Positions 43,659 through 58,602 of a DNA stretch of 64,000 nt are shown piece by piece. The notes beneath the pieces are model-generated. The model searched no databases, was not told the origin of the DNA, and saw only the letters and a program-made list of their open reading frames with translations. Position numbers and translations under genes: made by a program. Origin of the DNA: Pseudomonadota bacterium (GTDB lineage: Bacteria; Pseudomonadota; Gammaproteobacteria; JAJDOJ01); contig JAYENI010000081.1 in NCBI GenBank assembly GCA_034722015.1, positions 6,022 through 70,021 on the forward strand. Direction: 5' to 3'. Within the stretch, counting starts at the first letter, position 1. The number at the start of each line of letters is the position of its first letter.

Positions 43659-44123
43659 ATGATTCCCGTCACGGATGTGATCGTGCTGGTCCAGCCAATC
43701 GGTGGGTTGCAGCGGGTGTTTATTGGTGTGCTTCGGGGATTCTCGGCCCTGATGGCAGTGTTCCTGGCGCTCAGGTGTGGCTATGAGACACAAAGCAGCG
43801 CCGTTGATCTCCAGGGATGGGTCGAGGGGTGGATGATCTTACCCTTTGCGGTTGTGGCGTTCTTCGGTGCGCGCTTGCCGCGTAGCGCTGCCGCATTGAT
43901 TGTGGCAGCCACACTTTGGGTCGAGTGGGCGTTCGTTATCACCGGGCAGGAGGTTTCATTGGGAGCAATGGCGACATGGTATGGCGCTGTCCAGTCATAT
44001 CAGCCCAATCTGGCCGAGGTCGGAATACTCGTGCTCGGTATCGCCGTGGCTGCCGCCTTGTTTCAGTTGGGACGACAGATCTGGCTGAGCCCTTCGGGGC
44101 ATGCCGAAAACGAACCAATGTAG
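43659..44123 (+). CDS. Hypothetical membrane protein (4 TM)
   Basis: Hydrophobic segments VFIGVLRGFSALMAVFLAL, ILPFAVVAFFGA, ALIVAATLWVEWAFVI and VGILVLGIAVAAALF. Overlaps the unlikely 5' extension of the minus-strand lipoprotein ORF. Confidence 0.4.
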   Translation: MIPVTDVIVLVQPIGGLQRVFIGVLRGFSALMAVFLALRCGYETQSSAVDLQGWVEGWMILPFAVVAFFGARLPRSAAALIVAATLWVEWAFVITGQEVSLGAMATWYGAVQSYQPNLAEVGILVLGIAVAAALFQLGRQIWLSPSGHAENEPM

Positions 44124-44572
44124 CGACCGAGAAGCGGCCTCAGGGCCGCTTCTCGGTTCTGATCGTGCCTGTTGCCCTGAACGAGCGGACGATAACGCCC
44201 CAATTTTCATACTGAAAGCGATATGCTCGCCGAAACGGCGAAGAGAGACTGACGACTTTCTGTGCTGGAGAACAGAGCGCACATTTGATTCTACCCTTTC
44301 AGCCTTCCCGGCCTGGCGGGTCCAGTCAAGTCGATTACCGGTCCATCGCCGGGTGCATCACATGCACGGACCGTCACGTCTCCTCGCACCTTGATGATCC
44401 GGGACAATGCCCCCACATGTTTCCTGATAGTTAAAATTCTTGCTGGACAACGTGAGATGATCGGCCTTTTTGCGGACTCCGATGCTCTGAATACATATTG
44501 CACCGCGATTTGGTCATTCGGCTGATAGGAAGCAACGGCACAGTCCAGATATTCGGTTATCGAGGGTCAAAC

Positions 44573-45007
44573 ATGAGTGAATCCTTGCACATCGTCTGTC
44601 CGCACTGCGATGCGGTCAACCGTATCCCCTCCGCGCGTCTGGGCCAGGCGCCGAAGTGCGGCAAGTGTCACCGGTCGTTGTTCGAGGGACATCCGGTCGA
44701 ACTGACCGGCGCCAATTTCCAGAAACACGTTGCCCGCGGCGACATTCCCGTGCTGGTGGACTTCTGGGCGCCCTGGTGCGGTCCCTGCAAGATGATGGCG
44801 CCGGCTTACGAGCAGGTGGCCCAGCAGCTCGAACCGAGGGTGCGGGTCGCCAAGGTCAATACCGATGCCGAGCAGATGCTTGGCACCCAGTTCCAGATCC
44901 GCAGCATCCCGACCATGGCGCTGTTCAAGGGTGGCCGCGAGGTCGCCCGCCAGGCGGGGGCGATGGGTGCCGGGGACATCATGCGCTGGGTACAGGCGCA
45001 TCTGTAA
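44573..45007 (+). CDS. trxC: Thioredoxin 2 (N-terminal Zn-finger CxxC-x-CxxC plus WCGPC active site)
   Basis: CPHCDAVNRIP...CGKCH followed by DFWAPWCGPCKMMAP. Confidence 0.9.
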   Translation: MSESLHIVCPHCDAVNRIPSARLGQAPKCGKCHRSLFEGHPVELTGANFQKHVARGDIPVLVDFWAPWCGPCKMMAPAYEQVAQQLEPRVRVAKVNTDAEQMLGTQFQIRSIPTMALFKGGREVARQAGAMGAGDIMRWVQAHL

Positions 45008-45287
45008 TTTTTTTAGCCGGTTGTCACCTTAAATTTCATTTTCGGTTGCTACGGGAGCCGTTCCTTCAATTACAGTACGCTGAACGTCAAGGCGAGCGGG
45101 CCAAGTCTGCCCGAAGATTCGTTCTGTAGGTTCTCCGGTACCCGTTTGTTGTGAGGCTGGGTTCGCGCGTATCCTGGCCGAATATGGCATAGGAAATCTC
45201 CGAAGGGATTCCGGCCATGGAATTTCCGTGAGGCCGGACAGCGATCCGCCGCATACCCACACCCACGCGCATTTGGTGAAAAGACCC

Positions 45288-45680
45288 ATGAAACAGGTCG
45301 TTTGCGCCGCAATAGGGGATTCCCCCGGGCGGGTTCTGATGGCCCGCCGGGCGACGGGGGAACACCTTGAAGGATTTTGGGAACTCCCGGGCGGTAAGGT
45401 AGAGCCCGGTGAGACTCTTGCCTCGGCCCTCGAAAGGGAACTGGAAGAAGAGCTGGGGCTGCGTGCAGTGGCAGGCGCCGAGATCGCCCGTACGATTCAT
45501 CACTACGAACGCGGTAGTATCGAGTTGATCGCCCTGGCGACCACGGTGGCGAACAAAGTCGGGGCATTGCTCGTGCATGATGCGGTAACCTGGGTGAGCG
45601 CGGGAGAGGCCCGCCTCCTGCAGATCGCCCCTGCGGACGTTCCCCTCATCAACGTGGTCCTGCAGGGCATGCGCGCATGA
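45288..45680 (+). CDS. NUDIX hydrolase (MutT-like)
   Basis: Nudix box GFWELPGGKVEPGETLASALERELEEELGL. Confidence 0.8.
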   Translation: MKQVVCAAIGDSPGRVLMARRATGEHLEGFWELPGGKVEPGETLASALERELEEELGLRAVAGAEIARTIHHYERGSIELIALATTVANKVGALLVHDAVTWVSAGEARLLQIAPADVPLINVVLQGMRA

Positions 45681-47238
45681 GCGAGGAGTCCGGGGTCGGA
45701 TTCGGACTTCACGAACGGCTCTCGACGCCCACCCTGCGGGAGAAGCTGAGAGAACTCGGGCTGGAGGAGCTCGCGCGCTGGCGCGACAAACTATCGGTCG
45801 AGGATCTCGAACCCGCCGTCGCCGCGCATCTCGGCCGACTGTTCACACGCCTTTCCCTTGCCCTGCGAGAGAAGGACCACGATCAGTGGGGGCACGCGCT
45901 TGGGCAGTTTGCCGGGGCGTTGCAGTCCGCGGGCAATCCATTCGAAGGCCTGGCAGGAGAGGTTCCCGTGCCACCCTTCGAGCAACTGCTCGAGGTTGTG
46001 ACGCGAGAGGCCGGTGTCCTTGGAAAATCCAGAAGCATTCGCCCGGATGTGCCGCTGGGAGTTTCCGCCTTGCTCACAGGGGCCGGGAGAACCCCAAGCC
46101 TGATCAGTCAGATTCAAAAGGAACTGGCGAGTACGGACCGGGCCGACTGGCTCGTGAACGGCTCGACAGGGAGCAGTTCGATTACGTCGTGCTGGACGAG
46201 GCGCACCACGCGGCGGCGGCAAGCTATCGGGCCATCCTGGAACATGTCCGCCCGCGGGTCCTGCTCGGCCTGACGGCCACGCCCGAGCGGACCGACGGCC
46301 GTGATATCCGCGAGGACTTCGGTGGTCGCTATACCCACGAAATTCGCCTGCCGGATGCCGTCGAGCGGCGTCTGCTCGCCCCGTTTCACTACTTCGGGGT
46401 ATCCGATCACGACTCGATCGATCTCGCGCATCTCCACTGGCAGCGCGGCGGATACAGTCAGGCCGAGCTGGACCGGGTATTCGGCGCGAACGAGGTGCGG
46501 GCGAAGTGGGTGTACCGTCAGGTACTGGAGACTGTGGCCGATCCGGGACGCATCCGCGGGATTGGATTCTGCGTCAGCCAGGAGCATGCCCGGTTCATGG
46601 CGCGGATATTCTCGGAATGGGACCTCCCGTCCGAGGCCCTCACGGCCAACAGCGGCAAGGACCGGCGCAGGGAAGCCCAGAGGGATCTCGTGCAACGCCG
46701 GATCCGTTTTATCTTTACCGTCGATCTCTACAACGAAGGGGTCGATATTCCCGAGGTGGACACCGTTCTCCTGCTGCGCCCCACGGAGAGCCTCACGGTC
46801 TATCTGCAGCAGATCGGTCGGGGTCTGCGGCTCCACGAGGAAAAGCCCCATCTGACGATCCTCGATTTCATCGCGCCCCAGCATCGCCAGTTCCGGTTTG
46901 CGGATCGCTACCGCGCGCTGAGCAGTGAGCCAGCGGCCCGCATAGACCGGCAGGTCGAGGACGGCTTCCCCTGGCTGCCGAGCGGTTGCCTGATCGATCT
47001 GGATCCCGTCGCCAGAGAAAGGGGGCTGGAGAACATTCGCGGCAATCTGGATATGCGCAGGGACAAGGTTGTCGAGAATCTTGCGCAATGTCGCCAGCAT
47101 CTCGGGCGCCGCCCCGGTCTCGAAGAGATGCTGGACTGGCTGCATTTCGACACCTCGAACACCCGATGCCCGCCCGGATTTTCAGGATCAGTCACCGCGA
47201 GGCCGCGTGAGCGGGGCGACGAGCGCTGGTCGATTTAA
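45677..47238 (+). pseudogene. SF2 (DEAH-box, type III restriction Res-like) helicase, frameshifted and lacking motif I/PLD domain
   Basis: Frame shift near 46140-46160 between ORF 45677-46273 and ORF 45886-47238. Downstream frame carries VVLDEAHHAA (II), LGLTATP (III) and QQIGRGLR (VI). Paralog of the intact PLD-helicase at 63089. Confidence 0.55.
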
Positions 47239-47315
47239 CCCGGTTATCGAACAACGGACGGCGCATAGGGCAGATTCGACCGCTTCGCCGCAAGGAATAC
47301 CGCGTGGATGACTTA

Positions 47316-47472
47316 GGCGATCGCCGGAAAATGACATACTGGATCGCGTCGGATTATCGTTCGTCATCAAGGCGCGACGACAGGCGCATCGTCGAACGAT
47401 GTAGCGGTTGTCGCAACACAGAGGACGGACGAAAAGACGAGCAGGATGGTATGTCATTTGACAGAAATCGCC
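47316..47472. repeat. MITE-like element copy 7, flanked by direct CTTAG
   Basis: cttag|gcgatcgccggaaaatgacatact ... atttgacagaaatcgc|cttag. A further short terminal fragment (ggaaatcgcctaagg) lies at ~47975-47990. Confidence 0.85.
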
Positions 47473-47521
47473 TTAGACTGGATTTAGGAATCACAAGGGG
47501 CAGCACACTACGACGCGTGCC

Positions 47522-47950
47522 ATGACGATAGACAGAAAGGCGCTTCGACATTCACTGCGCAAGACCGCCGACGCCTTCCTTCGACTACTGCCGCTTCTGG
47601 TCGGCGTACTGTTGCTGGCCGGACTACTGGTGCAACTCGTACCCTGGCTGTTCCGGGCTGGGTTGTTCGGGCACGGTACGGCCGTAGATACGTGGGTCGC
47701 CGCCGTTATCGGGAGCGTCTCTACCGGTCCGCCGTTCACCGGTTACGTGCTGGGTGGCGAGCTTGTGTTGGGGGGGATCGCCCTGGTGACCGTCACGGCC
47801 TTCATCACCGCCTGGACAACGGTGGGTGTCGTTCAGCTTCCCGCGGAAGCCGGGATGCTTGGCTGGCGTTTCGCCCTCTGGCGAAATCTGATCGCCTTCC
47901 TGTTCTGCGTCCCGATCGCGTGGCTCACCGTGGTGACGCTGCGTGTCTGA
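47522..47950 (+). CDS. Putative permease, N-terminal half (DUF318/YraQ-like), split gene
   Basis: 4 TM segments, Gly-rich; followed by a second 4-TM half-gene. Confidence 0.4.
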   Translation: MTIDRKALRHSLRKTADAFLRLLPLLVGVLLLAGLLVQLVPWLFRAGLFGHGTAVDTWVAAVIGSVSTGPPFTGYVLGGELVLGGIALVTVTAFITAWTTVGVVQLPAEAGMLGWRFALWRNLIAFLFCVPIAWLTVVTLRV

Positions 47951-48001
47951 CAAGAAGGCCAGACCAGGAAATCGCCTAAGGCAGGGTTCGGCTGGTGGTT
48001 T

Positions 48002-48472
48002 TTGCTTGGTGTCGGAGCCCTCTATGCGATCGTTGCGATGGTTGACGGCGCGACCGCGCTGCGTGGGCTTCAGTATTCCCTGAAAGCGGGAGCGAAAATG
48101 TTGCCCGCCCTGCTGCTGGTCTTTCTCGTCATCTGGGCCTTTCATCTGGCGCGCGATGCGAAGGGCAGGCTGGTCAAGCTGGCGGGGCGAGGCAGCGGCA
48201 CGAAGGGCTGGATGATTGCGGTCACCACCGGGATCCTTTCCCACGGACCGGTCTATCCCTGGTATGCCCTTTTGAGGGAACTGCGCCAGCAGGGGGTCCG
48301 TCCGGCACTGATCGCCGCCTTTCTCTATGCCCGATCCATCAAACTGCCATGGTTGCCGTTGATGGCTTACTACTTTGGCCTTGCATACATGGTGACCCTG
48401 ACCGTCTACATCGCCGTGTTCTCGGTCCTCAACGGCTGGCTGGTGGAGAAACTGGCGCCGGGTGACGACTGA
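48002..48472 (+). CDS. Putative permease, C-terminal half (DUF318/YraQ-like)
   Basis: 4-5 TM segments. Separated from the first half by a MITE terminal fragment. Confidence 0.4.
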   Translation: MLGVGALYAIVAMVDGATALRGLQYSLKAGAKMLPALLLVFLVIWAFHLARDAKGRLVKLAGRGSGTKGWMIAVTTGILSHGPVYPWYALLRELRQQGVRPALIAAFLYARSIKLPWLPLMAYYFGLAYMVTLTVYIAVFSVLNGWLVEKLAPGDD

Positions 48473-48747
48473 TCCCGGCGTGCCCTCAGGTTCTTTCCTG
48501 GCGAGTGACCATCCGGCGATTCGCGGATGCGAATGCCGCAATATCTTACCTTCTCACCGGGAACCTTCCTTATGGGGTCCACCTTATGCAAGCCCTGTTG
48601 TCCTGATGCCGACTGGGCCTTGCATCGAAGCCGGCGTCCCCCTCGCTTCAAATCAGAGTAAAATTGACATAAATCAATATGCGGAATCCCATCATATGTT
48701 CTAAACAGTCTATAGTTTTTAAATATAAAACATGAGGGGAGGGAATC

Positions 48748-50031
48748 ATGCTGCTCAGAGGCAAATCTTTCATTGTGATCTTTGCAGCGCTGATAGCGGC
48801 GGGCTGCGCCGGCGAGCGGCAAGGCGTCGACGTAAACCAGATCCTCTCCAGTCCCAAGGAGTATGTAGGCTCCGAGACGTGTATGACCTGCCACCTGGAG
48901 CATCATGACGCGTGGAAGAAGACGCTGCACAGCCGCATGATCCAGGACGTGCGGGCCAACGAGGATGCAATCATCCCCGTCTTCGACGAGGCGGCGATCC
49001 GGGAAGATCTGAAGAATCTCGACAAGAAGCTGAAGGTGCCAGCTGAAGAAATCTACATTCCGAAGAAAGAGGACATCCTCTACACCATCGGCAGCCAGTG
49101 GAAACAGCGTTATCTGATCGAGAAAGAGGGCGATCTCTTCATTTCCCCCGTCCAGTACAACATCGATACGGGCCGCTGGGTCAACTATCACGAGCATGAC
49201 TGGGACAAGCGGCCCTGGTTGAAGAAATGCGGGGGCTGCCACGCGACAGGCGTCGATCTCGAGCAGAAGACGTTTATGGAGCCCGGCGTCGGATGCGAGA
49301 GTTGTCATGGCAAGGGCTCATGGCATGCGGCGTTACCCAAGGCCGAGACCTACAAAAAGCGCGAAACGATTGTGAATCCCGAGAAGTTGACGATGGGGGT
49401 ATCGGTCCAGATCTGCGGATCCTGCCACAACCGCGGTAAGTCGACCCACGTCAAGGGTGCCGGCTGGCCGGTAGGGTACGAGCCGGGCAAGTCGCTGGAG
49501 GCCTATTACCAATCCACGTCTTTCGAGGCCGGCGACGTCAAGCACGTCTATGCCAACGAGTTTTCCAAGGGTCACCACCAGCAGTATATCGACTGGAAAC
49601 AGTCCAAGCACTCCAGGGAAGGTGTGACCTGCAACTCCTGTCATTACTCGCACGAACTGGGCCAGGGAGCAACCCGTTCCCAGACCGCTACCAAGGGATC
49701 CAAGGTCTGCTTCGAGTGTCACGAGCAGGTCAACAGGGAGGGGCCCCACTCGATACATTCGTTCGCCAATTGCGTTGGCTGCCATATGCCCAGGATCGCC
49801 AAGAGCGCGGAGTCGGGTGACATCCACAGTCACGTGTTCGTGACCCTGCTACCCAGGGACACCCTGGAGAATCCCGACCTGCCCAACTCCTGCGAGACCT
49901 GCCACGAGCACAAGGACCAGGACCTGAAGGAGCTGCAGGAGCGCTACGACGCACTCACAAAGCGTTCGTATCCCGAAGGGATGGAAAAGGCGGATTCCGG
50001 GGAGTCGGAGCAAAAGCCGGAGGAGGGGTAG
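48748..50031 (+). CDS. Octaheme c-type cytochrome lipoprotein
   Basis: Lipobox IAAGCAG. Eight CxxCH motifs: CMTCH, CGGCH, CESCH, CGSCH, CNSCH, CFECH, CVGCH, CETCH. Strong RBS GAGGGGAGGG. AT-rich upstream region containing TTGACA. Confidence 0.85.
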   Translation: MLLRGKSFIVIFAALIAAGCAGERQGVDVNQILSSPKEYVGSETCMTCHLEHHDAWKKTLHSRMIQDVRANEDAIIPVFDEAAIREDLKNLDKKLKVPAEEIYIPKKEDILYTIGSQWKQRYLIEKEGDLFISPVQYNIDTGRWVNYHEHDWDKRPWLKKCGGCHATGVDLEQKTFMEPGVGCESCHGKGSWHAALPKAETYKKRETIVNPEKLTMGVSVQICGSCHNRGKSTHVKGAGWPVGYEPGKSLEAYYQSTSFEAGDVKHVYANEFSKGHHQQYIDWKQSKHSREGVTCNSCHYSHELGQGATRSQTATKGSKVCFECHEQVNREGPHSIHSFANCVGCHMPRIAKSAESGDIHSHVFVTLLPRDTLENPDLPNSCETCHEHKDQDLKELQERYDALTKRSYPEGMEKADSGESEQKPEEG

Positions 50032-50049
50032 TCAGCGGGGGAGCGGCAC

Positions 50050-50727
50050 ATGGCTCTGCATCATCGATGGCGCGCGAAGCGTGACCTGATCCGGGCCACT
50101 GTTTTGGGTGGTCTCTGTGTGGTGTTCCTGCAGGCGTTTGTCGCAACGAACGCTTTTGCGGTATCGGCCCAGTCAACGGGCGCTGAAGATGCCGGCGCGC
50201 TGATACGCCGCTACCGGGACGAGATACAGAGTTCTGATTATTTTGATCCATCCGACAACGCGATGTCGTTGCAGTTCGGTCCCAGGTCGACGGCTGCACC
50301 CGCACCGGGACCGAAAGCGGATGCTCATGCAGGCGTCAAGGGATACACGTTTCGTCGCTGCGAAAACTGCCATGAGCAGGAGGCGAACAACCTGCATACG
50401 ATCCGCGGCAACAACACCTGTCGCCAGTGCCATCGCCGGGAACCCATTGCCTCGATCGATCACTATTTCTCGATCCTGAATCCCATCCGTCGCCACGCGT
50501 ATGTCTGCGCGAAATGCCATGAGGGGTCGAGCGCGTCGTTCGCCACCTATGTCGTGCACGAACCGGTCGCGGCCAGTATCGAGACCCGGGACCAGTTCCC
50601 GTTCCTCTACTACGCTTACTGGTTCATGTTCTGGTTGCTTCTGGGCGTGCTTCTCATCTTTGTCCCCCACGGCATCGGCTGGTGGTTGCGCGAGTGGTTC
50701 GTCAAAAGGCGCCGGGAGGCCACGTGA
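50050..50727 (+). CDS. Triheme c-type cytochrome with C-terminal TM anchor
   Basis: CENCH, CRQCH, CAKCH; C-terminal LYYAYWFMFWLLLGVLLIFV. Confidence 0.75.
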   Translation: MALHHRWRAKRDLIRATVLGGLCVVFLQAFVATNAFAVSAQSTGAEDAGALIRRYRDEIQSSDYFDPSDNAMSLQFGPRSTAAPAPGPKADAHAGVKGYTFRRCENCHEQEANNLHTIRGNNTCRQCHRREPIASIDHYFSILNPIRRHAYVCAKCHEGSSASFATYVVHEPVAASIETRDQFPFLYYAYWFMFWLLLGVLLIFVPHGIGWWLREWFVKRRREAT

Positions 50728-50732
50728 AATCC

Positions 50733-51557
50733 ATGGACAAACCTGTCAGACGATTTACGCGCTTTGATCGCCTTACACACCTGTGGCTGATTCTCACCTT
50801 TATGGTGCTTGCCATCACCGGTACCGGACGTCTCTACGACTCCACGTACTGGGGGCGTTCCCTGCTCGACCTTTTCGGTGGCGAAGACCAGGCGATCCTG
50901 GTGCACATCTGGGCGGGATGGCTGATGACGATCGGATTCGGCGTGCACATTCTGTATCTGTTCACCAGGGTTCGATGGAGAGCACCGGGAAACAGTCTGT
51001 TCGGACCGGATTCACTGGTTCCCGTCTGGAGGGATTTCAAACAGTTCGGCCAACAGGTCCTCTGGTTTTTCGGCATCGGCAGGGACCCGGAATTTGAGCG
51101 CTGGACCTATTGGGAAAAGTTTGACTACTGGGCGGTGTTCTGGGGAATCCCGATCCTGTTCGTGACCGGGCTGATGTTGATCTACCCGGTGGAAACGGCA
51201 CGTGTCGTTCCCGGATGGACCCTGAACGTCGCGCTACTGATCCATCGCGCCGAGGCAATCCTCGCCGTCAGTTACATCATCCTCATCCACTTGATGGTCG
51301 GACATTTCCGCCGGTCCACGTTCCCGCTCAACGAGGCGATGTTCTCAGGGAGCGTACCGCTCGAACGTTTGAAAGACGAAAAGCCCTTGTGGGTAGCACG
51401 TCTCGATCGTCTGAACCAGTTGAAAGACCTTGCCACAACCCCACCCGCACTCTGGTTCCGGATGCTGTATTTCGTTTTCGGCTATGCCGTCATCGGACTC
51501 GGTGTGTACCTGGTGATCTGGGGGATCTACTACAGTCGGTTTGTCAGTTTGCACTGA
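50733..51557 (+). CDS. Membrane b-type cytochrome (Ni/Fe-hydrogenase / FdnI-like cytochrome b, PF01292-like)
   Basis: RFTRFDRLTHLWLILTFMVLAITG and later ...HRAEAILAVSYIILIHLMVGHF: 4-5 TM segments with conserved His pairs. Confidence 0.7.
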   Translation: MDKPVRRFTRFDRLTHLWLILTFMVLAITGTGRLYDSTYWGRSLLDLFGGEDQAILVHIWAGWLMTIGFGVHILYLFTRVRWRAPGNSLFGPDSLVPVWRDFKQFGQQVLWFFGIGRDPEFERWTYWEKFDYWAVFWGIPILFVTGLMLIYPVETARVVPGWTLNVALLIHRAEAILAVSYIILIHLMVGHFRRSTFPLNEAMFSGSVPLERLKDEKPLWVARLDRLNQLKDLATTPPALWFRMLYFVFGYAVIGLGVYLVIWGIYYSRFVSLH

Positions 51558-51968
51558 TCAGGGTGACATTCAGAATGCCCTGACAACGGGCGCGAATATC
51601 CTGCCTTCGATGTATCTGGAAATTTTCCCATCTGGATTTTCCGCCCGGTGCGCAATGTAACGGGTCGGCTGGTCAAACGGTGGGACCCGGTAGAGGATGA
51701 GCAGACGGCGCAATGGCTGGTATTCGCCAAGTCACAGTAAGAGGTGGAGTACGTCGGTACCGGATGCCGGCACGCTTTCGTGGTCCGCGACATCGGGCAG
51801 GCAGGCGAAGACGTCGCCGCTCTCGCATCCCTGTCCGCATCGGGAAAGTCTTCGCGGCGGGGTCCGGTGCTACCGGAAGAGCGCAACCGACTACAATTAT
51901 CCTGTTGTATCCGACTTCTGCTGTTCCCCAGGCACAGAATACTTCAGGGATTTCCTGTTCCTCGATGA

Positions 51969-54695
51969 GTGTTTGTCATGCCCACGAATGACCCGAGTTT
52001 CGCCTGGCATGCCCAGGATGTGGATGCCGTGCTCGAACGGCTGGAAACCAGGGATACCGGGCTCGAACAGGTCGAGGCCAACCTACGCCTGCAACGCTAC
52101 GGCCCGAACCGGCTGCCGCCGCCCAAACGCCGGGGTTCCTGGCTGCGGTTCCTGATCCAGTTCCACAACGTCCTGATCTATGTCCTGATTGCCGCGGCGC
52201 TGGTGACCGCCCTGCTGGGGCACTGGGTGGATACCGGCGTCATCGTCGCCGTCGTTCTCATCAACGCGCTGGTGGGGTTCGTCCAGGAAGGCAAGGCCGA
52301 ACGCGCGCTGGACGCCATCCGCAACCTGCTGTCTCCCCATGCCACCGTGCTGCGCGACCGGAAGCAGGTGGTGCTTCCCGCCGAGCAGGTCGTGCCGGGG
52401 GACGTCGTACTGCTGCAGCCGGGTGACAAGGTCCCTGCCGATCTGCGCCTGATTCGCGTCAGGGACCTGAGAATCGAGGAGGCCGCGCTGACCGGAGAGT
52501 CGGTGCCCGTGGACAAGACCCGGGGTGAGGTGGAGGAGGAGACGGTCCTGGGCGACCGGACCAGTATGGCATTCGCCAGCACCCTGGTGACCTACGGTCA
52601 GGGCGCCGGGATCGTCGTCGGTACCGGTGAGGACACCGAGATCGGCCATATCAGCGCCCTTCTGGGGAAGGTACACACGCTGACGACTCCGTTGCTGCGG
52701 CAGATCTCCCGATTCGGGCGCTGGCTGACCGCGGCCATCCTGTTCATGGCCGCCTGTACGTCCGCTTACGGCATCCTGGTCTGGGAAAATCCACTCAGCG
52801 ACATGTTTCTCGCCGCGGTCGGCCTGGCGGTTGCCGCCATTCCCGAGGGACTCCCCGCGATCATCACCATCACGCTCGCGATCGGCGTGCAGCGCATGGC
52901 CGCCCGCAACGGGATCATTCGTCTGCTTCCCGCAGTGGAGACGCTCGGCGCGGTTTCAGTTGTCTGTTCGGACAAGACGGGGACACTGACGCGGAACGAA
53001 ATGACGGTCCAGACCGTTGCCAGTGCCCGTAACCTGTTCGACGTGGCCGGGGTGGGCTACAACCCGCACGGCGGGATCCGTGTGAACGAAGAGGAGATAG
53101 ATCCCGAGACGCGCCCGGGACTGATGGAGCTGGCGCGCGCCAGCCTGCTCTGCAACGACGCCGAAGTGAATCTCGACGACGGGCGATGGAAGCTGTCGGG
53201 CGATCCCACCGAAGGCGCGCTGTATACCCTGGCCCTGAAATGCGGCCTCGATCCGTTGTTTCAGAAGGAGTCGCTGCCCCGTACCGACACGATTCCGTTC
53301 GATTCCCGGCACCGCTTCATGGCGACTTTGCATCACGACCATGCGGGTCACGGGTTCATCTATATCAAGGGCGCACCGGAGCGCCTGGTGGATCGGTGCG
53401 CATGGCAGCGCATCGAGGGCGAGGATCAGCCGATCGACATCGGCTACTGGTACCGGCGCGTGGAGGAGATCGCGCGGCGCGGTCAGCGAACCCTGGCACT
53501 GGCGTTCCGTTCCGCGGAACCGGACCACGGCGAGCTGAAGTTCGACCACGTCGAGGGGGGGCTCACCCTGCTCGGTCTGGTCGGGATCATCGATCCGCCC
53601 CGCGTAGAGGCAATCGAGGCCGTGAAGCAGTGCCGCTCGGCGGGAGTCACCGTCAAGATGATCACCGGGGACCACGCGGTGACAGCCCATGCGGTCGCCG
53701 ACCAGATGGGTATCGGCGACGGCGGCAGTACGCTGACCGGCGACGAGATCGAAGGGTCGGCCGAAGTGGAGTTGCGTGATGCCGTCCGGAACATCGACGT
53801 ATTTGCCCGTACCAGCCCGGAACACAAACTGCGCCTGGTGGAGGCGCTGCAGGCCAACGGCACCGTGCTGGCCATGACCGGCGACGGCGTCAACGACGCC
53901 CCCGCCCTGAAGCGCGCGGACGTGGGCGTGGCCATGGGCATCAACGGCACCGAGGTGGCGAAGGAGTCCGCTGAAATGGTGCTGGCCGACGACAACTTCG
54001 CGTCCATTGTCCACGCCATCGAAGAGGGCCGCACGGTCTACGACAATATCAAGAAATCCATTCTCTTCATTCTTCCCACCAACGGTGCGGAGGCGTTCAC
54101 CCTCATTGCGGCCATCCTGCTGGGCTATCACCTGCCCATCACCCCGGTCCAGATCCTCTGGGTGAACATGATCACGGCGGTCACGCTGGCACTGTCACTG
54201 GCCTTCGAACCGCCGGAGACCGATATCATGAACCGCCCGCCCAGGGACCCGGACGAGCCCATCCTGTCGGGGTTTCTCATCTGGCGCACGCTCTTCGTCT
54301 CCCTGCTCATGGTGGCGGGAATCTTCGGCCTGTTCCTGTGGGAGATCGATTCCGGCACATCGCTGGACACGGCAAGGACGGTCGCCGTCAATACGCTGGT
54401 GATGTTCGAGGTCTTCTACCTGCTCAACACGCGATACATCCGGCGCTCGATCCTGTCGCGCAAGGGGCTGACGGGGAACCGCAAGGTGCTCGTCGCCATC
54501 GTCCTGGTGGTCTTCTTCCAGTTTCTTTTTACCTACCACCCATGGATGCAACAGCTTTTTCACACCACGCCCCTGGATGCCAAAACCTGGGCGGTGCTGG
54601 TACTGGTCGCGTCATCGGTGTTCTTTGTCGTCGAGCTGGAGAAGTATTTCGCCAGATATTGCAGTTCCAGGAGTAAGGCGATTTCTGTCAAATGA
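51969..54695 (+). CDS. Cation-transporting P-type ATPase (P2-type, Ca2+/Mg2+-like)
   Basis: CSDKTGTLT phosphorylation motif; TGES; MITGDH...GDGVNDAPAL; 10 TM segments. Confidence 0.9.
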   Translation: MFVMPTNDPSFAWHAQDVDAVLERLETRDTGLEQVEANLRLQRYGPNRLPPPKRRGSWLRFLIQFHNVLIYVLIAAALVTALLGHWVDTGVIVAVVLINALVGFVQEGKAERALDAIRNLLSPHATVLRDRKQVVLPAEQVVPGDVVLLQPGDKVPADLRLIRVRDLRIEEAALTGESVPVDKTRGEVEEETVLGDRTSMAFASTLVTYGQGAGIVVGTGEDTEIGHISALLGKVHTLTTPLLRQISRFGRWLTAAILFMAACTSAYGILVWENPLSDMFLAAVGLAVAAIPEGLPAIITITLAIGVQRMAARNGIIRLLPAVETLGAVSVVCSDKTGTLTRNEMTVQTVASARNLFDVAGVGYNPHGGIRVNEEEIDPETRPGLMELARASLLCNDAEVNLDDGRWKLSGDPTEGALYTLALKCGLDPLFQKESLPRTDTIPFDSRHRFMATLHHDHAGHGFIYIKGAPERLVDRCAWQRIEGEDQPIDIGYWYRRVEEIARRGQRTLALAFRSAEPDHGELKFDHVEGGLTLLGLVGIIDPPRVEAIEAVKQCRSAGVTVKMITGDHAVTAHAVADQMGIGDGGSTLTGDEIEGSAEVELRDAVRNIDVFARTSPEHKLRLVEALQANGTVLAMTGDGVNDAPALKRADVGVAMGINGTEVAKESAEMVLADDNFASIVHAIEEGRTVYDNIKKSILFILPTNGAEAFTLIAAILLGYHLPITPVQILWVNMITAVTLALSLAFEPPETDIMNRPPRDPDEPILSGFLIWRTLFVSLLMVAGIFGLFLWEIDSGTSLDTARTVAVNTLVMFEVFYLLNTRYIRRSILSRKGLTGNRKVLVAIVLVVFFQFLFTYHPWMQQLFHTTPLDAKTWAVLVLVASSVFFVVELEKYFARYCSSRSKAISVK

Positions 54696-54835
54696 CATAC
54701 CATCCTGCTTGTCTTTTCGTCCGTCCCCTGTGTTGCGACAACCGTTCCATCGTTCGACGATGTGCCTGTTGTCGCGCCTTGATGACGACCGATAATCCGG
54801 CGCGATCTGATATGTCATTTTCCGGCAATCGCCTA
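54677..54835. repeat. MITE-like element copy 9
   Basis: taag|gcgatttctgtcaaatgacatacc ... atatgtcattttccggcaatcgc|ctaag. The 5' end overlaps the last codons of the ATPase. Confidence 0.85.
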
Positions 54836-55003
54836 AGCGAACCGGTCAGCAGGATTGACACGTACCAACAAGGAAAATGGCCTTTGGGTAGGTCGGGTTA
54901 GCGCAGCGTAACCCGAAAATTTTGCATCCCCCGGTGTCGGGTTACGCTTTCGCCAACCCGAAGGACGAAATGGCACCGGCAGTTTTTCGCGTCCTGACGA
55001 GAT

Positions 55004-55816
55004 TCACGGCCCGTCGGCACAACGAAACCCGATGGATCCGTAGATGCTGTCGCCACTGAACGGCGGCTTGACGTTTCGGTAGGAGCTGCGCAGGTTGTCG
55101 GTATTCTCGTCCCAGGAGCCGCCACGGACGACGCGCTGACGGCCATTTTCGGGGCCGACGAGGTCGCCTTTCGCGTACAGGCGCGTCAGGGCATCGGGGG
55201 CGTACCAGTTCATCACCCATTCCCCTGCGTTGCCGTGCATGTCGCGGAGGCCGAACGCGTTGGCTTCGCGGCTGCCGATGGGCCAGGTGCGGTCTTCACC
55301 GCAGCCATCCGGTTCGTCCGGGACGCTGCCCATGGTATGGCCGTCATCGAGGATGGCCTGCTTGCAGCTCACCTCGCCGCCCCAGGGATAGGGTGAGGTG
55401 CTGCCGGCACGGGCCGCTTTCTCCCATTCGGCCTCGGTCGGCAGGCGGCCCTGTCGGGTCGCGCAGTAGTCGAGCGCCTGCTGCCAGTCCACACAGTTGA
55501 CCGGGTGACCACCGCGATCCGGACTGCCGACGTTACAGTACTTGTTGCGGGCGTGGTCCTTGGGCCGGTTGCAGGCGCCGCTGTCGATGCAACGCGTGTA
55601 CTCGTCCACCGTGACCTCGTAGCGGTCGATGCGAAACGCCGGGACATCCACGGTGGTCCCGCCCGGTGCGCCTTCGTCGTCGCCGCAGGCCTTGTCACCG
55701 GTCGAGCAGCCCATCTGGAAAGGACCGGCCGGAATCCGGACCGGGTCCGGCGTCTGTGATGCGGTTGCGGTGGCTATGCCCGTTACGCCAGCCAGGAGCA
55801 GGACAGGAATCTTCAT
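55004..55816 (-). CDS. Secreted formylglycine-generating-enzyme (FGE/SUMF1) domain protein
   Basis: Signal peptide MKIPVLLLAGVTGIATATA. Family motifs RVVRGGSWDENTDNLRSSYR, HPVNCVDWQQALDYC and HGNAGEWV. Confidence 0.8.
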   Translation of the reverse strand: MKIPVLLLAGVTGIATATASQTPDPVRIPAGPFQMGCSTGDKACGDDEGAPGGTTVDVPAFRIDRYEVTVDEYTRCIDSGACNRPKDHARNKYCNVGSPDRGGHPVNCVDWQQALDYCATRQGRLPTEAEWEKAARAGSTSPYPWGGEVSCKQAILDDGHTMGSVPDEPDGCGEDRTWPIGSREANAFGLRDMHGNAGEWVMNWYAPDALTRLYAKGDLVGPENGRQRVVRGGSWDENTDNLRSSYRNVKPPFSGDSIYGSIGFRCADGP

Positions 55817-56446
55817 TTACGGGTTTCCTTGTTTGTCCGGTTCTTCGGTGAGCGCGAACAACACACCCTTCTCGACCCACAGGGTCACCTTGATGCCGCG
55901 CGACCAGGTCGAAACCGGCATCTCGCCCTTGTCGTAGTCCGGGATCCGGCGGAATGTTCTCGAGTCATAGCCGACTTCGTAGAGGGTGCGCAGGTCGTCT
56001 TCCCCCACGGACCCGAAGCGCAGCTGGGCCGCGGTAACGCCCTGCAGCGAACAGTAGCGACCGCCGAGCAGGGTCAGTCCACTGTCCGCCAGATAGCGGC
56101 TTTCCACCGGCATGAAGTCGAGTCGCGTGAAATAGTTCTGGATCCCCGCGATGCGCGTCGTATTGACCTCGAGCGGCTTCAGGTGCAGGTGGTTCTCGAC
56201 CACCTCGGAGGCGATCTCGTCGATCAGGTTTTCCGGACCGCCGGGCCGGGCGAGCCACAGGGTCAGGCCCGCCACGAGCAGGGCCACGGCCGCGGCGCCG
56301 GCCCAGGCGCCGTAGCGATTGCGCTCCCCTTCGGCCGGCCGGTCGTCACCGGCAGGTTGCAGAGACCTCAGGGCATCCAGTTGGCCCGCGTCGAGTTGCC
56401 TGGCGTTCAGGTGGTCCTTGAGGACCCGCTTGAGTGGACGCTTCAT
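55817..56446 (-). CDS. Anti-sigma factor (single TM)
   Basis: ATGA overlap with the sigma stop. N-terminal cytoplasmic region, TM AWAGAAAVALLVAGLTLWLA, periplasmic C-terminus. Confidence 0.6.
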   Translation of the reverse strand: MKRPLKRVLKDHLNARQLDAGQLDALRSLQPAGDDRPAEGERNRYGAWAGAAAVALLVAGLTLWLARPGGPENLIDEIASEVVENHLHLKPLEVNTTRIAGIQNYFTRLDFMPVESRYLADSGLTLLGGRYCSLQGVTAAQLRFGSVGEDDLRTLYEVGYDSRTFRRIPDYDKGEMPVSTWSRGIKVTLWVEKGVLFALTEEPDKQGNP

Positions 56447-56943
56447 GTGCCTGCCCCCTCCCTGATCCCGTCCCCGCCGAGGTCGAAACGGGCGATCTTC
56501 TTCTTCAGGCGGTGTATCCGCGAAAGGATGGTGCCCCGGGGCGAATCCAGCTGGGTCGCGATCTCGCGGGCGGTCATCTCCTCGTAGGCCCACAGATGCA
56601 ACAGTTCACGCTCCAGCGGATCGAGCCGGGCCAGGATCGACTCGATCATCTGCCGGTCGATCACCAGTTCCCCGGGATCCGGCATGGCCATGGACACCAG
56701 GCTGTCTCCGCCATCTTCCAGGGACTCGTGCGGGTAGCGCTTTTCCTTTCTGAGCTGGTCGATGTAGCGGTTGCGCATGACCCTGCGCAGATAAAACCCG
56801 GCGCCGTCGACGGGCCGCCGCGCGGGATCCATTTTCAGGTAGCACTCAATGGCGTCCTGCAGCAGGTCGTAGGCCAGAGTCTCGTCGTTGGTGAGCGAGA
56901 TGCCGTAGCGGTACAGGCCGTTGAGCTGCGCGTCACTGAACAC
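56443..56943 (-). CDS. ECF-family RNA polymerase sigma factor
   Basis: Region 2 (DLLQDAIECYLK...RVMRNRYIDQLR) and region 4 HTH (LTAREIATQLDSPRGTILSRIHRLKKKI). Confidence 0.8.
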   Translation of the reverse strand: MFSDAQLNGLYRYGISLTNDETLAYDLLQDAIECYLKMDPARRPVDGAGFYLRRVMRNRYIDQLRKEKRYPHESLEDGGDSLVSMAMPDPGELVIDRQMIESILARLDPLERELLHLWAYEEMTAREIATQLDSPRGTILSRIHRLKKKIARFDLGGDGIREGAGT

Positions 56944-57736
56944 CGGTTTGCCCCGTTTGTTCGTTCTCCAGGCGGAATCCGCAGATCCATCCGCGAGCGA
57001 CGAGGTTGGGGAGGCGGGTCATGGCGCCTGCCAGGCGCGGGTCTGTCGACAGTTGCGTCAGTGTCCGGACCGAAGCGATCGCCTCCAGCAGGGCGAATGC
57101 CTCCGCGTCGACCCGGACGATCTCTACCTCCAATTCGGCGCGGACGATTGCCAGACGGTCTGGCGTGCCGTCGGCGCGGATCTCGCGGGGCGCCTCTCCG
57201 TTCCTGTGGCGGCGCCAGAGTTCGAATACCGGCCAGTCGCTCTGCATCGGATAAAGGCTTGCGCTGAGGGTGAAGACGAGGCGTTCGGGCCGGTTCGCGG
57301 CGTCCGCGAAGTCCGTATAGTCGAACGGTGGATCATCCGGTGCGAACAGGGCCTGGTGCCAGTGGTATTCCAGCAGGGCCAGGTCGTGCAGATAGGGCAG
57401 TGCCGCAAGTTCCGTGTCGTGTTCCCGGAGGAAATCCGGAAATCCCACGCCGTACCGGTTCAGGTCCGGATCGGTCGTCGGACAACGCCAGGCGTATTCC
57501 CGGGCCAGTGTGGCGAAGACGCGCTCACCGATCACCTCCCGGCACACCGGGTAGATGCTCTCCAGCGCGGCGATGTGGGCCCCGCTGACGTTGTGTCGAT
57601 AGATAGCCAGCCGGTCCGGGTTGCTCAAGGTGCCGTATTGCCGGACCAGCGCCGCCCCCGCCTCCAGCTCCCGTTCGTTGCGGAACGGGCTGAGCGCGGC
57701 GCAGAGACGGGTCTGGATTTCCGCGAGGGAATTCAT
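56933..57736 (-). CDS. DUF2063 family protein (MNIO partner, BufC/MbnC-like)
   Basis: Translationally coupled (ATGA) to the DUF692 gene. Sequence pattern of DUF2063 putative-DNA-binding proteins. 267 aa. Confidence 0.75.
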   Translation of the reverse strand: MNSLAEIQTRLCAALSPFRNERELEAGAALVRQYGTLSNPDRLAIYRHNVSGAHIAALESIYPVCREVIGERVFATLAREYAWRCPTTDPDLNRYGVGFPDFLREHDTELAALPYLHDLALLEYHWHQALFAPDDPPFDYTDFADAANRPERLVFTLSASLYPMQSDWPVFELWRRHRNGEAPREIRADGTPDRLAIVRAELEVEIVRVDAEAFALLEAIASVRTLTQLSTDPRLAGAMTRLPNLVARGWICGFRLENEQTGQTGVQ

Positions 57737-58602
57737 GCCGATGCCGCCTCGGCGGGCGTATCGACGTGGCGCGCAACGAGGGCCTCGGCCTTTTGTCCCT
57801 CCGCCTGCAAGACCTCGAATGCGGGAATATCCTTGTCCCATTCGATCAGAGTGGGGATGTCCGGCTGCCGCCGGACGAAATCCTCGTACAGCCGCCAAAC
57901 GGGCGGCGTAACCGGGTGGTTGTGGGCGTCCAGCAGGTAACCCTCGCGGGTCTCGTAGCCGGCGAGGTGGATCTCGCGCACCCGCGCCACCGGGATCCGG
58001 TCCAGGTACGCCCGCGCGTCGAATCCATGATTCACCGCGTTGACGTAGACGTTGTTGATGTCGAGCAGCAGCTCGCAGTCGGCGCGCTCCAGCAGTTCGG
58101 CGATGAAATCCGCCTCGTCGATGTCCGAGGCCTGATAGCTGAGATAGCTGGAGACGTTCTCCACCAGGATCCGTCGACCCAGGAACTCCTGCACGAACTG
58201 GATCCTCGATGAGAGATGCCGCAGGGCTTCCTCGTTGCAGGGCAACGGGAGCAGGTCGTGGTAGTTGTGCCGCCGGAAACGTGTGAAACTCAGGTGATCC
58301 GACACCCAGGCGGGCTCGGCGTCCCGGACCAGTCGGCGGATGGCCTTCAGATAATCCATATCCAGCGGGTCCGTCCCGCCCAGGGACATCCCCACGCAGT
58401 GGAAGGTGAGGGGATAATGCTCCCGCACGGTCGCCAGTTGTCGCGGAATAGCGCCGCCGGTAGCCAGATAATTGTCGGCCAGGATCTCGAACCAGGGAAT
58501 GTCCGGACGATCGCGGAGAACCTCCGCAACATGCGTCGAGCGCAGCCCCAGGCCCACACCCCCAACACCGCTCCGTGCCCGTGAGGGCACGTGAGCGGGC
58601 AT
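57733..58602 (-). CDS. MNIO family enzyme (DUF692/UPF0276; MbnB/BufB-like)
   Basis: VGLGLRSTHVAEVL... TIM-barrel DUF692 pattern. Start taken at MPAHV (58602). Adjacent to the DUF2282 precursor. Confidence 0.85.
   Translation of the reverse strand: MPAHVPSRARSGVGGVGLGLRSTHVAEVLRDRPDIPWFEILADNYLATGGAIPRQLATVREHYPLTFHCVGMSLGGTDPLDMDYLKAIRRLVRDAEPAWVSDHLSFTRFRRHNYHDLLPLPCNEEALRHLSSRIQFVQEFLGRRILVENVSSYLSYQASDIDEADFIAELLERADCELLLDINNVYVNAVNHGFDARAYLDRIPVARVREIHLAGYETREGYLLDAHNHPVTPPVWRLYEDFVRRQPDIPTLIEWDKDIPAFEVLQAEGQKAEALVARHVDTPAEAASA

What the first reader, a model, noticed from the sequence alone, without database searches (positions are those of the whole stretch)
48748..51557. Three-gene redox module: octaheme c lipoprotein + membrane-anchored triheme c + cytochrome b
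Contiguous co-oriented genes (gaps 18 and 5 bp) encode: an 8x CxxCH lipoprotein (427 aa); a 3x CxxCH cytochrome with a C-terminal TM anchor (unusual topology; NapC/NrfH-type proteins are N-terminally anchored and tetraheme); and a PF01292-like dihaem b membrane protein. Together these look like a quinol-linked periplasmic electron-transfer chain of unknown terminal substrate. Candidates are a sulfur or nitrogen oxyanion, or a metal. The upstream region is AT-rich with a strong GAGGGGAGGG RBS.
Basis: partly seen in the sequence, partly recalled or inferred. Interest (0 to 1): 0.6.

Follow-up and report, generated by a model that had tools for sequence, protein, structure and literature searches.

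The report
Conserved octaheme–triheme–cytochrome b operon
Three adjacent genes encode a membrane-bound chain of 13 predicted hemes that probably connects the quinone pool to a periplasmic eight-heme enzyme; the same operon is found in at least 80 bacterial species (165 carry the eight-heme gene), mostly sulfate reducers, and its substrate is unknown.

Summary
Three co-oriented genes lie at 48748-50031, 50050-50727 and 50733-51557, with gaps of 18 and 5 bp. They encode an 8-CxxCH predicted lipoprotein, a 3-CxxCH cytochrome with a signal peptide and a C-terminal TM helix, and a PF01292 cytochrome b with the four-His pattern expected for two b hemes.

The trio is strictly syntenic in 80 of 81 related loci; the exception is cut by a contig end. 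No other neighbour is conserved.

The octaheme's closest solved relative is OcwA of Thermincola (sequence E 1e-27; Foldseek E 1.8e-24, TM 0.65). It lacks OcwA's heme 5 and keeps the invariant His-His motif that lies over OcwA's open heme 2, which gives an MccA-like eight-heme core. It fails the tests for NrfA, MccA, OTR and OcwA itself.

The C-terminally anchored c-type cytochrome beside a diheme b is not unprecedented: Geobacter CbcBA has this layout.

More distant homologues of the octaheme pair with NrfH-type or FeS+NrfD modules instead, so the triheme/b pair looks like an alternative quinone-coupling module.

Substrate and direction of electron flow remain unresolved. I file it as an unnamed new variant of a known kind, of moderate interest.

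The parts
48664..48677 (+). Candidate FNR/CRP-family operator TTGACATAAATCAA (9 of 10 matches to TTGAT-N4-ATCAA), 71-84 nt upstream of the octaheme start codon
   Evidence: The window holds only 4 such sites in 64 kb, against 1.26 +/- 1.13 expected. Boxes with at most 1 mismatch lie upstream of the module in 6 of 81 loci against 1.7 +/- 1.4 in shuffles. With at most 2 mismatches the count is 32 of 81 against 17.6 +/- 3.4. This is an inferred lead, not a shown function.
48734..48743 (+). Ribosome-binding site GAGGGGAGGG inside a 34% G+C leader (48640-48747)
   Evidence: Read directly from the sequence. Composition.
48748..50031 (+). Octaheme c-type cytochrome, predicted lipoprotein (427 aa). 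It is OcwA/MccA-like, with a candidate open heme 2 under the invariant H276-H277.
   Evidence: 8 CxxCH and 0 CxxCK in all 82 members. OcwA 6i5b matches at E 1.2e-27 by sequence and at E 1.8e-24, TM 0.65 by Foldseek on a pLDDT 90.5 model. The HHQQY motif aligns with OcwA HH281/282.
50050..50727 (+). Triheme c-type cytochrome (225 aa) with a Sec-type signal peptide and a C-terminal TM anchor; proposed link between the b subunit and the octaheme
   Evidence: 3 CxxCH in all 81 orthologues, plus invariant H93, H116 and H170; H149 is kept in at least 90%. The C-terminal TM segment is present in 78 of 81, and H207 inside it is kept in 16 of 17 aligned orthologues. No Pfam family passes threshold and no solved structure matches by sequence.
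50733..51557 (+). Diheme cytochrome b (274 aa) of the PF01292 (FdnI/HyaC/PhsC-type) family, with about five TM segments (four over my hydropathy threshold, a fifth read by eye); the presumed quinone/quinol site
   Evidence: PF01292 E 5.5e-11, 43.0 bits against a cut-off of 30.1. H16, H58, H171 and H186 are invariant in 82 sequences. It stays below the FdnI equivalog cut-off (48.8 against 115.85 bits).

Best explanation
The three genes encode one inner-membrane complex that couples the quinone pool to a periplasmic octaheme enzyme.

- The cytochrome b (two b hemes across the membrane) exchanges electrons with quinol or quinone.
- The triheme c sits on the periplasmic face. Its C-terminal helix packs against the b subunit, as predicted for CbcA beside CbcB and, from my own knowledge, as FdnH does beside FdnI.
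- The triheme relays electrons to the lipid-anchored octaheme.
- The octaheme has an OcwA/MccA-type heme core. Its heme 2 probably keeps an open distal site under a conserved His-His pair, where a small substrate would bind.

My committed reading is that electrons flow from quinol to the octaheme, which reduces a small inorganic nitrogen or sulfur oxide (nitrite, hydroxylamine, NO, sulfite or tetrathionate class) under oxygen-limited conditions, for respiration or detoxification.

What is shown: gene content, heme motifs, strict synteny, and homology to OcwA and to PF01292. What is inferred: physical complex formation, the open heme 2, the direction of flow, the substrate class and the regulation.
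For: - Synteny of the three genes in 80 of 81 loci drawn from 165 species that carry the octaheme, with no other conserved neighbour.
- The octaheme (1238 clusters) and the triheme (921 clusters) have similar family sizes, and neither carries a functional name.
- PF01292 membership and the four-His pattern of the b subunit.
- OcwA is the best hit by sequence and by fold; MccA comes third, behind OmhA.
- The invariant H276/H277 align with OcwA HH281/282, which lie over its five-coordinate heme 2. The stretch holding OcwA heme 5 and HH380/381 is absent, and this is how the OcwA paper relates MccA to OcwA.
- Homologues at 36-41% identity are followed by NrfH-type cytochromes (P0126, P0137, P0138) or by FeS+NrfD (P0129), the partners of NrfA and MccA-type reductases.
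- CbcBA gives the precedent for a C-terminally anchored c cytochrome beside a diheme b.
- FNR-type boxes are enriched upstream of the module.
- The octaheme is 63-76% identical between Gammaproteobacteria and Desulfobacterota, against 36-66% for its partners, which fits a tightly constrained heme-packed protein.
Against: - No experiment or expression data were found.
- The open heme 2 rests on alignment to OcwA at 26% identity. I could not inspect coordinates of the model, and AlphaFold places no hemes.
- The HH motif is not universal in the wider superfamily.
- OcwA, the closest characterised relative, is an extracellular electron-transfer reductase whose nitrite and hydroxylamine activities may be secondary.
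- From my own knowledge, FdnI-type b subunits usually carry electrons from the periplasm to quinone, so the opposite direction is equally compatible with the parts.
- No nitrogen- or sulfur-cycle gene is a conserved neighbour.
- The FNR-box enrichment was judged against mononucleotide shuffles. Strong boxes (at most 1 mismatch) occur in only 6 of 81 loci.
Confidence: 0.45

Rival explanations
1. CbcBA-like electron export. The b/triheme pair oxidises menaquinol, and the octaheme acts mainly as a periplasmic or surface-directed wire that passes electrons to other cytochromes, minerals or syntrophic partners. It would not be an enzyme for a soluble substrate.
For: [quoted passage not shown]
- The architecture matches CbcBA.
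- The carriers are sediment Desulfobacterota.
- The octaheme is a predicted lipoprotein, as MtrC and OmcA are (my own knowledge).
- The window also encodes a separate 955-aa protein with nine CxxCH motifs.
Against: - No porin, beta-barrel or further cytochrome gene is conserved next to the module in 81 loci.
- Extracellular cytochromes usually evolve fast (a point made in the CbcBA paper), whereas this octaheme is 63-76% identical across phyla.
- The HH pocket is invariant.
- Sigma-54 promoters, which control cbcBA, are not enriched upstream (3 of 81 against 4.0 +/- 2.0 in shuffles).
Confidence: 0.25
2. Quinone-reducing dehydrogenase (redox loop). The octaheme takes electrons from a periplasmic donor, either a substrate it oxidises (hydroxylamine, sulfite or thiosulfate class) or reduced periplasmic cytochromes. 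It passes them through the triheme and the two b hemes to quinone at the cytoplasmic side, which conserves energy as Fdh-N and Hyd-1 do.
For: - From my own knowledge, PF01292 b subunits of FdnGHI and Hya work in this direction and have the same C-terminal-helix partner arrangement.
- The module occurs in sulfur-oxidising gammaproteobacterial lineages (Ectothiorhodospiraceae, Chromatiaceae, Arenicellales) as well as in sulfate reducers that need periplasm-to-menaquinone routes.
- Cytochrome c554, a member of the same superfamily, carries electrons towards the quinone pool (PMC9250108).
Against: - NrfH and NrfCD partners of the distant homologues are best known from reductases.
- The HH-lined five-coordinate heme in OcwA was shown to support reductions.
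- There is no HAO-type fold match and no evidence for a tyrosine cross-link.
Confidence: 0.2
3. The three genes are only neighbours and do not work together.
For: No direct evidence of a physical complex was obtained.
Against: - Order, orientation and tight spacing are kept in 80 of 81 loci across two phyla, while all other neighbours change.
- The family sizes of the octaheme and the triheme are similar.
Confidence: 0.02

Closest known systems
OcwA (Thermincola potens nonaheme cell-surface reductase, PDB 6I5B)
   Same: Best sequence hit (E 1.2e-27 over residues 33-393) and best fold hit (E 1.8e-24, TM 0.65). Eight heme motifs align in order. The His-His motif that lies over OcwA heme 2 is conserved as H276/H277.
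   Different: Eight hemes, not nine: the segment carrying OcwA heme 5 and its HH380/381 pocket is missing. The C-terminal three-helix bundle is reduced to one short predicted helix (393-405). Identity is 26%. The host is Gram-negative, the protein has a lipobox, and it has an inner-membrane partner pair that OcwA is not described as having.
MccA (Wolinella octaheme heme-copper sulfite reductase, PDB 4RKM)
   Same: Eight hemes. By the OcwA paper's mapping, MccA corresponds to OcwA hemes 1-4 and 6-9 with heme 2 as the active site. Foldseek E 3e-5. It also works with a membrane quinol-dehydrogenase module.
   Different: No Cys outside the heme motifs and the lipobox, so no MccA-type Cu site. All motifs are CxxCH, with no CX15CH. 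TM-score is only 0.33, and the protein is 427 aa against about 660-730. The partners are a triheme c plus cytochrome b rather than FeS plus NrfD.
CbcBA (Geobacter sulfurreducens bc-type menaquinol oxidoreductase)
   Same: A c-type cytochrome predicted to be held by a C-terminal TM helix, beside a separate four-TM diheme b of the hydrogenase/thiosulfate-reductase b type. A conserved His lies in the c subunit's TM helix (H207 here; a fourth b-heme ligand is proposed in CbcA).
   Different: CbcA has seven hemes and no separate octaheme partner. cbcBA is sigma-54 controlled, and such promoters are not enriched here. The b subunit here already has four invariant His of its own.
Fdh-N (FdnGHI) and [NiFe]-hydrogenase-1 (HyaABC) membrane modules
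   Same: A PF01292 diheme b next to an electron-transfer subunit anchored by one C-terminal TM helix (established structures; my own knowledge).
   Different: The relay subunit carries three c hemes instead of Fe-S clusters. The b subunit scores below the FdnI equivalog cut-off, has an extra C-terminal TM segment, and has no detectable sequence match to any solved chain.
OTR with adjacent cytochrome b, and the Desulfovibrio Ohc complex (ohcBAC)
   Same: Both are an octaheme c cytochrome encoded beside a membrane cytochrome b and proposed to link to the quinone pool: Thermosulfurimonas TDIS_1882/1883 (PMC4911364) and Ohc (PMC4641369).
   Different: OTR (1SP3) gives no sequence hit at E <= 1 and is absent from the 50 listed Foldseek hits. 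Ohc contains an Fe-S subunit OhcB that is absent from all 81 loci, and it is sigma-54 regulated. Sequence comparison with OhcA and OhcC was not possible.

Membership tests
NrfA pentaheme nitrite reductase | CxxCK active-site heme motif | tested here: not met
   0 CxxCK in all 82 family members; all eight motifs are CxxCH.
NrfA pentaheme nitrite reductase | Full-length match above the curated cut-off of the NrfA equivalog models | tested here: not met
   TIGR03152 scores 32.6 bits against 692.5, and NF008339 scores 31.7 against 595. Only a local stretch matches.
MccA octaheme sulfite reductase | Cysteines outside heme motifs that bind Cu(I), and a CX15CH motif for the last heme | tested here: not met
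   The window protein has 17 Cys, 16 in CxxCH motifs and one in the lipobox, and 17 is the commonest count in the family. All motifs are CxxCH.
MccA octaheme sulfite reductase | Eight-heme core equal to OcwA hemes 1-4 and 6-9, with heme 2 as the active site | tested here: inconclusive
   The alignment to OcwA shows eight motifs in register and the heme-5 segment missing. Heme positions could not be checked in three dimensions. Foldseek to MccA gives E 3e-5 and TM 0.33.
OTR octaheme tetrathionate reductase | Detectable sequence or fold similarity to Shewanella OTR (1SP3) | tested here: not met
   No 1SP3 hit by phmmer at E <= 1, none by profile at E <= 0.01, and none among the 50 listed Foldseek matches.
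OcwA/OmhA cell-surface cytochromes | Nine (or eleven) hemes with two five-coordinate hemes, each under a His-His motif | tested here: not met
   Eight motifs. Only the first His-His motif (H276/H277) is present. The region of HH380/381 and heme 5 is absent.
OcwA/OmhA cell-surface cytochromes | Overall fold | tested here: met
   Foldseek E 1.8e-24, TMq 0.65, 26% identity over 454 columns, on a model with mean pLDDT 90.5.
PF01292 prokaryotic cytochrome b561 (FdnI/HyaC/PhsC type) | Pfam gathering score and four conserved His for two b hemes | tested here: met
   43.0 bits against 30.1. H16, H58, H171 and H186 are invariant in 82 sequences.
Formate dehydrogenase gamma subunit (FdnI equivalog) | Score above the TIGR01583 / NF007924 cut-offs | tested here: not met
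   48.8 bits against 115.85, and 28.5 against 341.
NapC/NirT/NrfH quinol dehydrogenases | N-terminal TM anchor, four hemes and a PF03264 match | tested here: not met
   The triheme has three CxxCH motifs, a C-terminal anchor and no PF03264 hit. PF03264 proteins do accompany distant homologues of the octaheme.
CbcBA-type bc cytochrome | c-type cytochrome with a C-terminal TM anchor encoded beside a diheme b | tested here: met
   The C-terminal TM segment is present in 78 of 81 triheme orthologues, and the b gene is adjacent in 80 of 81 loci. The feature is described for CbcBA.
CbcBA-type bc cytochrome | Sequence homology to GSU0593/GSU0594 | not testable with these tools
Desulfovibrio Ohc complex | Fe-S subunit OhcB encoded with the octaheme and the b subunit | tested here: not met
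   No Fe-S protein is among the conserved neighbours in 81 loci. Ohc composition is taken from PMC4641369.

The most novel reading that the evidence does not exclude
The module is an unrecognised, widespread respiratory enzyme complex of marine-sediment sulfate reducers and sulfur-oxidising Gammaproteobacteria. Its octaheme would catalyse, at a His-His-lined heme 2, a nitrogen- or sulfur-cycle reaction not yet assigned to any multiheme enzyme. It would be wired to the quinone pool through a previously undescribed triheme-c/diheme-b coupling module.
Probability: 0.25. Interest if true: 0.75.

Novelty: new variant of a known kind. Interest (0 to 1): 0.5.

Why it matters
Multiheme enzymes of the NrfA/HAO/MccA/OTR superfamily drive key steps of the nitrogen and sulfur cycles, and each newly characterised branch has so far revealed distinct chemistry.

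This branch is tight and abundant. It has 1238 clusters at 90% identity and is found in 165 species-level genomes. It includes cultivated sulfate reducers such as Desulfospira joergensenii and Desulfoluna limicola, so it can be tested experimentally.

It also shows a third way of wiring such enzymes to the quinone pool, besides NrfH-type and NrfCD-type modules. At present, databases label all three proteins only as hypothetical or generic multiheme cytochromes, so metabolic reconstructions of sediment microbes ignore them.

Tried and rejected
1. A first AlphaFold run with 15 close homologues gave an unusable model (pLDDT 42). Adding 53 more distant sequences fixed it (pLDDT 90.5).
3. Sigma-54 control, as in cbcBA and ohc, is not supported. 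Promoter-like sites occur in 3 of 81 upstream regions against 4.0 +/- 2.0 in shuffles, although about 12 loci have a sigma-54 activator nearby.
4. HcpR-type boxes (TTGTGA-N6-TCACAA) are not enriched.
5. Simple sigma-70 and terminator scans found nothing.
6. The 164-nt inverted repeats flanking the region (47312-47475 and 54674-54837) looked like composite-transposon ends. They belong to a dispersed repeat family with seven copies in the window, so I do not treat them as specific to the module.
7. Recent transfer from Desulfobacterota into this gammaproteobacterium is not supported by a rough NJ tree. The window groups with Ectothiorhodospiraceae, Arenicellales and Chromatiaceae copies outside the large Desulfobacterota clade.
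8. DsrJ, another triheme, was considered and dropped because no DsrMKOP genes are in the context.
9. The window's own neighbours (two small permease-like proteins, a P-type ATPase, an FGE-sulfatase domain protein, thioredoxin 2) are not conserved with the module.
10. Ten literature searches found no description of this trio. The library is open-access only, and Pereira et al. 2011 on sulfate-reducer complexes could not be read.
11. The triheme and the b subunit have no sequence relative among solved structures, even when the b subunit is searched as a profile.
Full report
**What is there.** The + strand carries three tightly spaced ORFs: 48748-50031 (427 aa), 50050-50727 (225 aa) and 50733-51557 (274 aa). 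The gaps are 18 and 5 bp. An alternative GTG start at 50682 for the third gene would overlap the second; orthologue alignments begin near the ATG. Each gene has a purine-rich site before its start codon. The first has GAGGGGAGGG at 48734-48743, inside a leader whose last 108 nt are 34% G+C against 58% for the genes. About 410 bp separate the third gene from the next ORF, a P-type ATPase.

**The three proteins.**
- ORF1 has one N-terminal hydrophobic segment ending in LIAAGC, eight CxxCH motifs, no CxxCK, and no other cysteine.
- ORF2 has a signal-like segment, three CxxCH motifs and one C-terminal TM segment followed by basic residues.
- ORF3 passes the Pfam gathering score for PF01292 (43.0 against 30.1 bits). 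It has four hydrophobic segments over my threshold and, by eye, about five TM helices.
- Neither Pfam nor NCBIfam has a model that describes ORF1 or ORF2 full-length. Every NCBIfam hit is far below its cut-off.

**Is the trio real?**
- A search of 5.8 billion proteins gave 1238 relatives of ORF1. The best 120 are 68-77% identical, apart from the window's own record at 100%, and are named only 'multiheme c-type cytochrome' or 'hypothetical'.
- ORF2 gave 921 relatives, likewise unnamed.
- A scan of one genome per GTDB species found relatives of ORF1 in 165 candidate stretches, and 80 loci were fetched. With one locus, that makes 81.
- In 80 of the 81, homologues of ORF2 and ORF3 follow ORF1 in the same order and orientation. 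The exception stops at a contig end.
- Clustering of all ORFs in these loci shows no other gene present in more than about 13 loci. A sigma-54 activator with a PhnD-like binding protein and a receiver protein lies upstream in about 12. A CuA-type cupredoxin and a cupredoxin-NapH-like fusion lie downstream in about 8.
- The operon is therefore a self-contained three-gene unit.
- Most carriers are Desulfobacterota, including Desulfospira joergensenii DSM 10085, Desulfoluna limicola and MAGs assigned to Desulfosudis oleivorans and Desulfobacca acetoxidans. About ten are Gammaproteobacteria.
- In a rough NJ tree the window groups with Ectothiorhodospiraceae, Arenicellales and Chromatiaceae copies, outside the large Desulfobacterota clade.
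- In the library clustered at 50% identity there is a single full-length representative (65% identical). The next relatives drop to 47% or less. This is a discrete, tightly conserved family.

**The octaheme.**
- By sequence, the best solved relative is OcwA (6I5B), the nonaheme cell-surface reductase of Thermincola potens, at E 1.2e-27 over residues 33-393. NrfA, MccA and cytochrome c554 follow at E 1e-5 to 1e-3.
- An AlphaFold model from 66 sequences reached mean pLDDT 90.5.
- Foldseek ranks OcwA first (E 1.8e-24, TM 0.65), then OmhA (3.8e-12), MccA (3e-5), NrfA (1e-2) and c554 (3e-2). OTR and HAO are not among the listed hits.
- The OcwA paper reports that hemes 2 and 5 are five-coordinate, each under a His-His pair (HH281/282 and HH380/381). 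It also reports that MccA superimposes on OcwA hemes 1-4 and 6-9, with heme 2 as the active site (PMC6703420).
- In the alignment, eight OcwA motifs match the eight here in order. 'GHHQQY' (H276/H277) aligns with OcwA 'SHHLQY', which is HH281/282 after the +29 offset of the chain numbering.
- OcwA has about 36 extra residues between that motif and the next aligned heme, where its fifth motif must lie. It also has about 23 extra residues where HH380/381 lies.
- H276 and H277 are invariant in 82 sequences.
- The same stretch aligns with NrfA's 'KAQHPEY...H...VSCxDCH'. From my own knowledge, that segment holds NrfA's catalytic histidine.
- I therefore infer an MccA-like eight-heme core with one candidate catalytic heme, heme 2. 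This is inferred from alignment and has not been seen in a structure.
- The protein lacks MccA's copper-binding cysteines and its CX15CH motif, lacks NrfA's CxxCK, and has only one short predicted helix (393-405) where OcwA and NrfA have a three-helix bundle.

**The membrane pair.**
- The b subunit has invariant H16 (TM1), H58 (TM2), and H171 and H186 (same helix, 15 residues apart). From my own knowledge, this is the pattern of FdnI-type diheme b proteins.
- The triheme has invariant H93, H116 and H170, and H149 in at least 90% of sequences, besides its three motifs. That is enough for bis-His ligation of all three hemes.
- The C-terminal TM segment is found in 78 of 81 orthologues. It carries a His (H207) in 16 of 17 aligned sequences.
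It is unusual for NapC/NrfH proteins, but it matches what is described for Geobacter CbcBA. There, a heptaheme CbcA is predicted to be anchored by a C-terminal TM domain next to the four-TM diheme b CbcB, and a b-heme ligand is proposed to come from the CbcA helix (bioRxiv 10.1101/2021.04.15.440034).
- From established structures (my own knowledge), FdnH and the hydrogenase small subunits do the same beside PF01292 b subunits.
- Neither the triheme nor the b subunit has a sequence relative among solved structures.

**Evidence that the pair is a quinone-coupling module.** I looked up eight homologues of the octaheme at 36-41% identity.
- Three are followed by a PF03264 NapC/NrfH-type cytochrome (P0126, P0137, P0138).
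- One is followed by an Fe-S protein and an NrfD-type membrane protein (P0129).
- Four gave no information or showed no partner.

From my own knowledge, NrfH and NrfCD are the two modules that link NrfA-type enzymes to quinol, and an FeS+NrfD pair serves MccA. In this family the triheme/b pair takes the same position in the operon.

**Function.** The parts support a chain from quinone through two b hemes, three c hemes and eight c hemes to a substrate.
- My committed reading is a quinol-dependent reductase for a small nitrogen or sulfur oxide, used under oxygen limitation (confidence about 0.45).
- The weak regulatory lead is an FNR-type box, TTGACATAAATCAA, at 48664-48677. It is one of only four such sites in 64 kb.
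- Such boxes are enriched upstream of the module elsewhere. With at most 1 mismatch they occur in 6 of 81 loci against 1.7 +/- 1.4, including three perfect palindromes. With at most 2 mismatches they occur in 32 of 81 against 17.6 +/- 3.4. The control was a mononucleotide shuffle, so this is only a lead.
- Rival readings are a CbcBA-like electron-export route with the octaheme as a wire (0.25) and a quinone-reducing redox loop fed by a periplasmic donor (0.2). The sequence data do not exclude either.

**Comparison with known systems.** The module works like a bc-type multiheme quinone oxidoreductase, with CbcBA, Ohc and OTR-plus-cytochrome-b as analogues. It carries a catalytic-looking subunit of the OcwA/MccA clade. 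It fails the defining tests for NrfA, MccA, OTR, OcwA, NrfH and the FdnI equivalog, and it lacks the Fe-S subunit of Ohc. It meets only PF01292 membership, the OcwA fold and the CbcBA-type architecture. Homology to CbcBA and Ohc proteins could not be tested.

**Verdict.** I found no description of this trio in ten literature searches of an open-access library. I rate it a new variant of a known kind with interest 0.5. It is abundant, tightly conserved, present in cultivable hosts and unnamed, but it is assembled from familiar parts and its chemistry is still unknown.

Noticed in passing
window 6490-6655, 14796-14962, 29745-29908, 32855-33019, 34882-35046, 47312-47476, 54675-54839: A dispersed repeat of about 165 nt with seven copies in 64 kb, in both orientations, 79-95% alike, and lying in what look like intergenic stretches. 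It has no Rfam match in the stretch searched (44000-58000). Two copies form a 164-nt inverted pair (93% complementary) that brackets the two small permease-like genes, the cytochrome operon and the P-type ATPase. It looks like a MITE or REP-like element.
   Followed up: partly
window 25870-28737 (+): A second large multiheme cytochrome: 955 aa with nine CxxCH motifs and only weak Cytochrome_C7 hits. An FNR-like box (TTGATTCACGTCAA, 28861-28874) lies just downstream of it, ahead of an unannotated 172-aa ORF (29031-29549).
   Followed up: partly
window 45677-47238 (+): A ResIII/Helicase_C (DEAH-type) gene appears split between two frames (45677-46273 and 45886-47238). This could be a frameshifted pseudogene or an assembly error.
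   Followed up: no
window 20831-23434 (+): A lower-GC stretch (50-56% at 22-25 kb) holds a phage-integrase-family gene and a KilA-N/Rha-like gene. It is likely a prophage remnant or genomic island.
   Followed up: no
L001 10959-13459, and about 8 other Desulfobacterota loci (for example L040 9869-10360, L037 8571-10502): In a subset of loci the operon is followed directly by a small CuA-type cupredoxin, whose best partial hits are the C-terminal domains of NosZ and CoxB. Next comes a protein of about 640 aa that fuses a cupredoxin-like domain to a NapH/MauN-like polyferredoxin membrane domain. P-type ATPases of two different kinds also lie near the module in four to five loci and in the window. 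This may be a copper-linked extension of the module.
   Followed up: partly
window 50050-50727, residue H207 (about 50668-50670); orthologues in A4: A histidine inside the C-terminal TM helix of the triheme is kept in 16 of 17 aligned orthologues, even though the b subunit already has four invariant His plus the nearly invariant H72 and H191 on the cytoplasmic side. It could be an extra heme ligand or part of the quinone site, as proposed for CbcA.
   Followed up: partly
window 47522-47950 and 48002-48472 (+): Two adjacent small membrane proteins (142 and 156 aa) lie just upstream of the operon. The second has a weak match to the C-terminal end of the ArsP_1 permease family, so this may be a split permease. 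They are not conserved with the module in other loci.
   Followed up: partly
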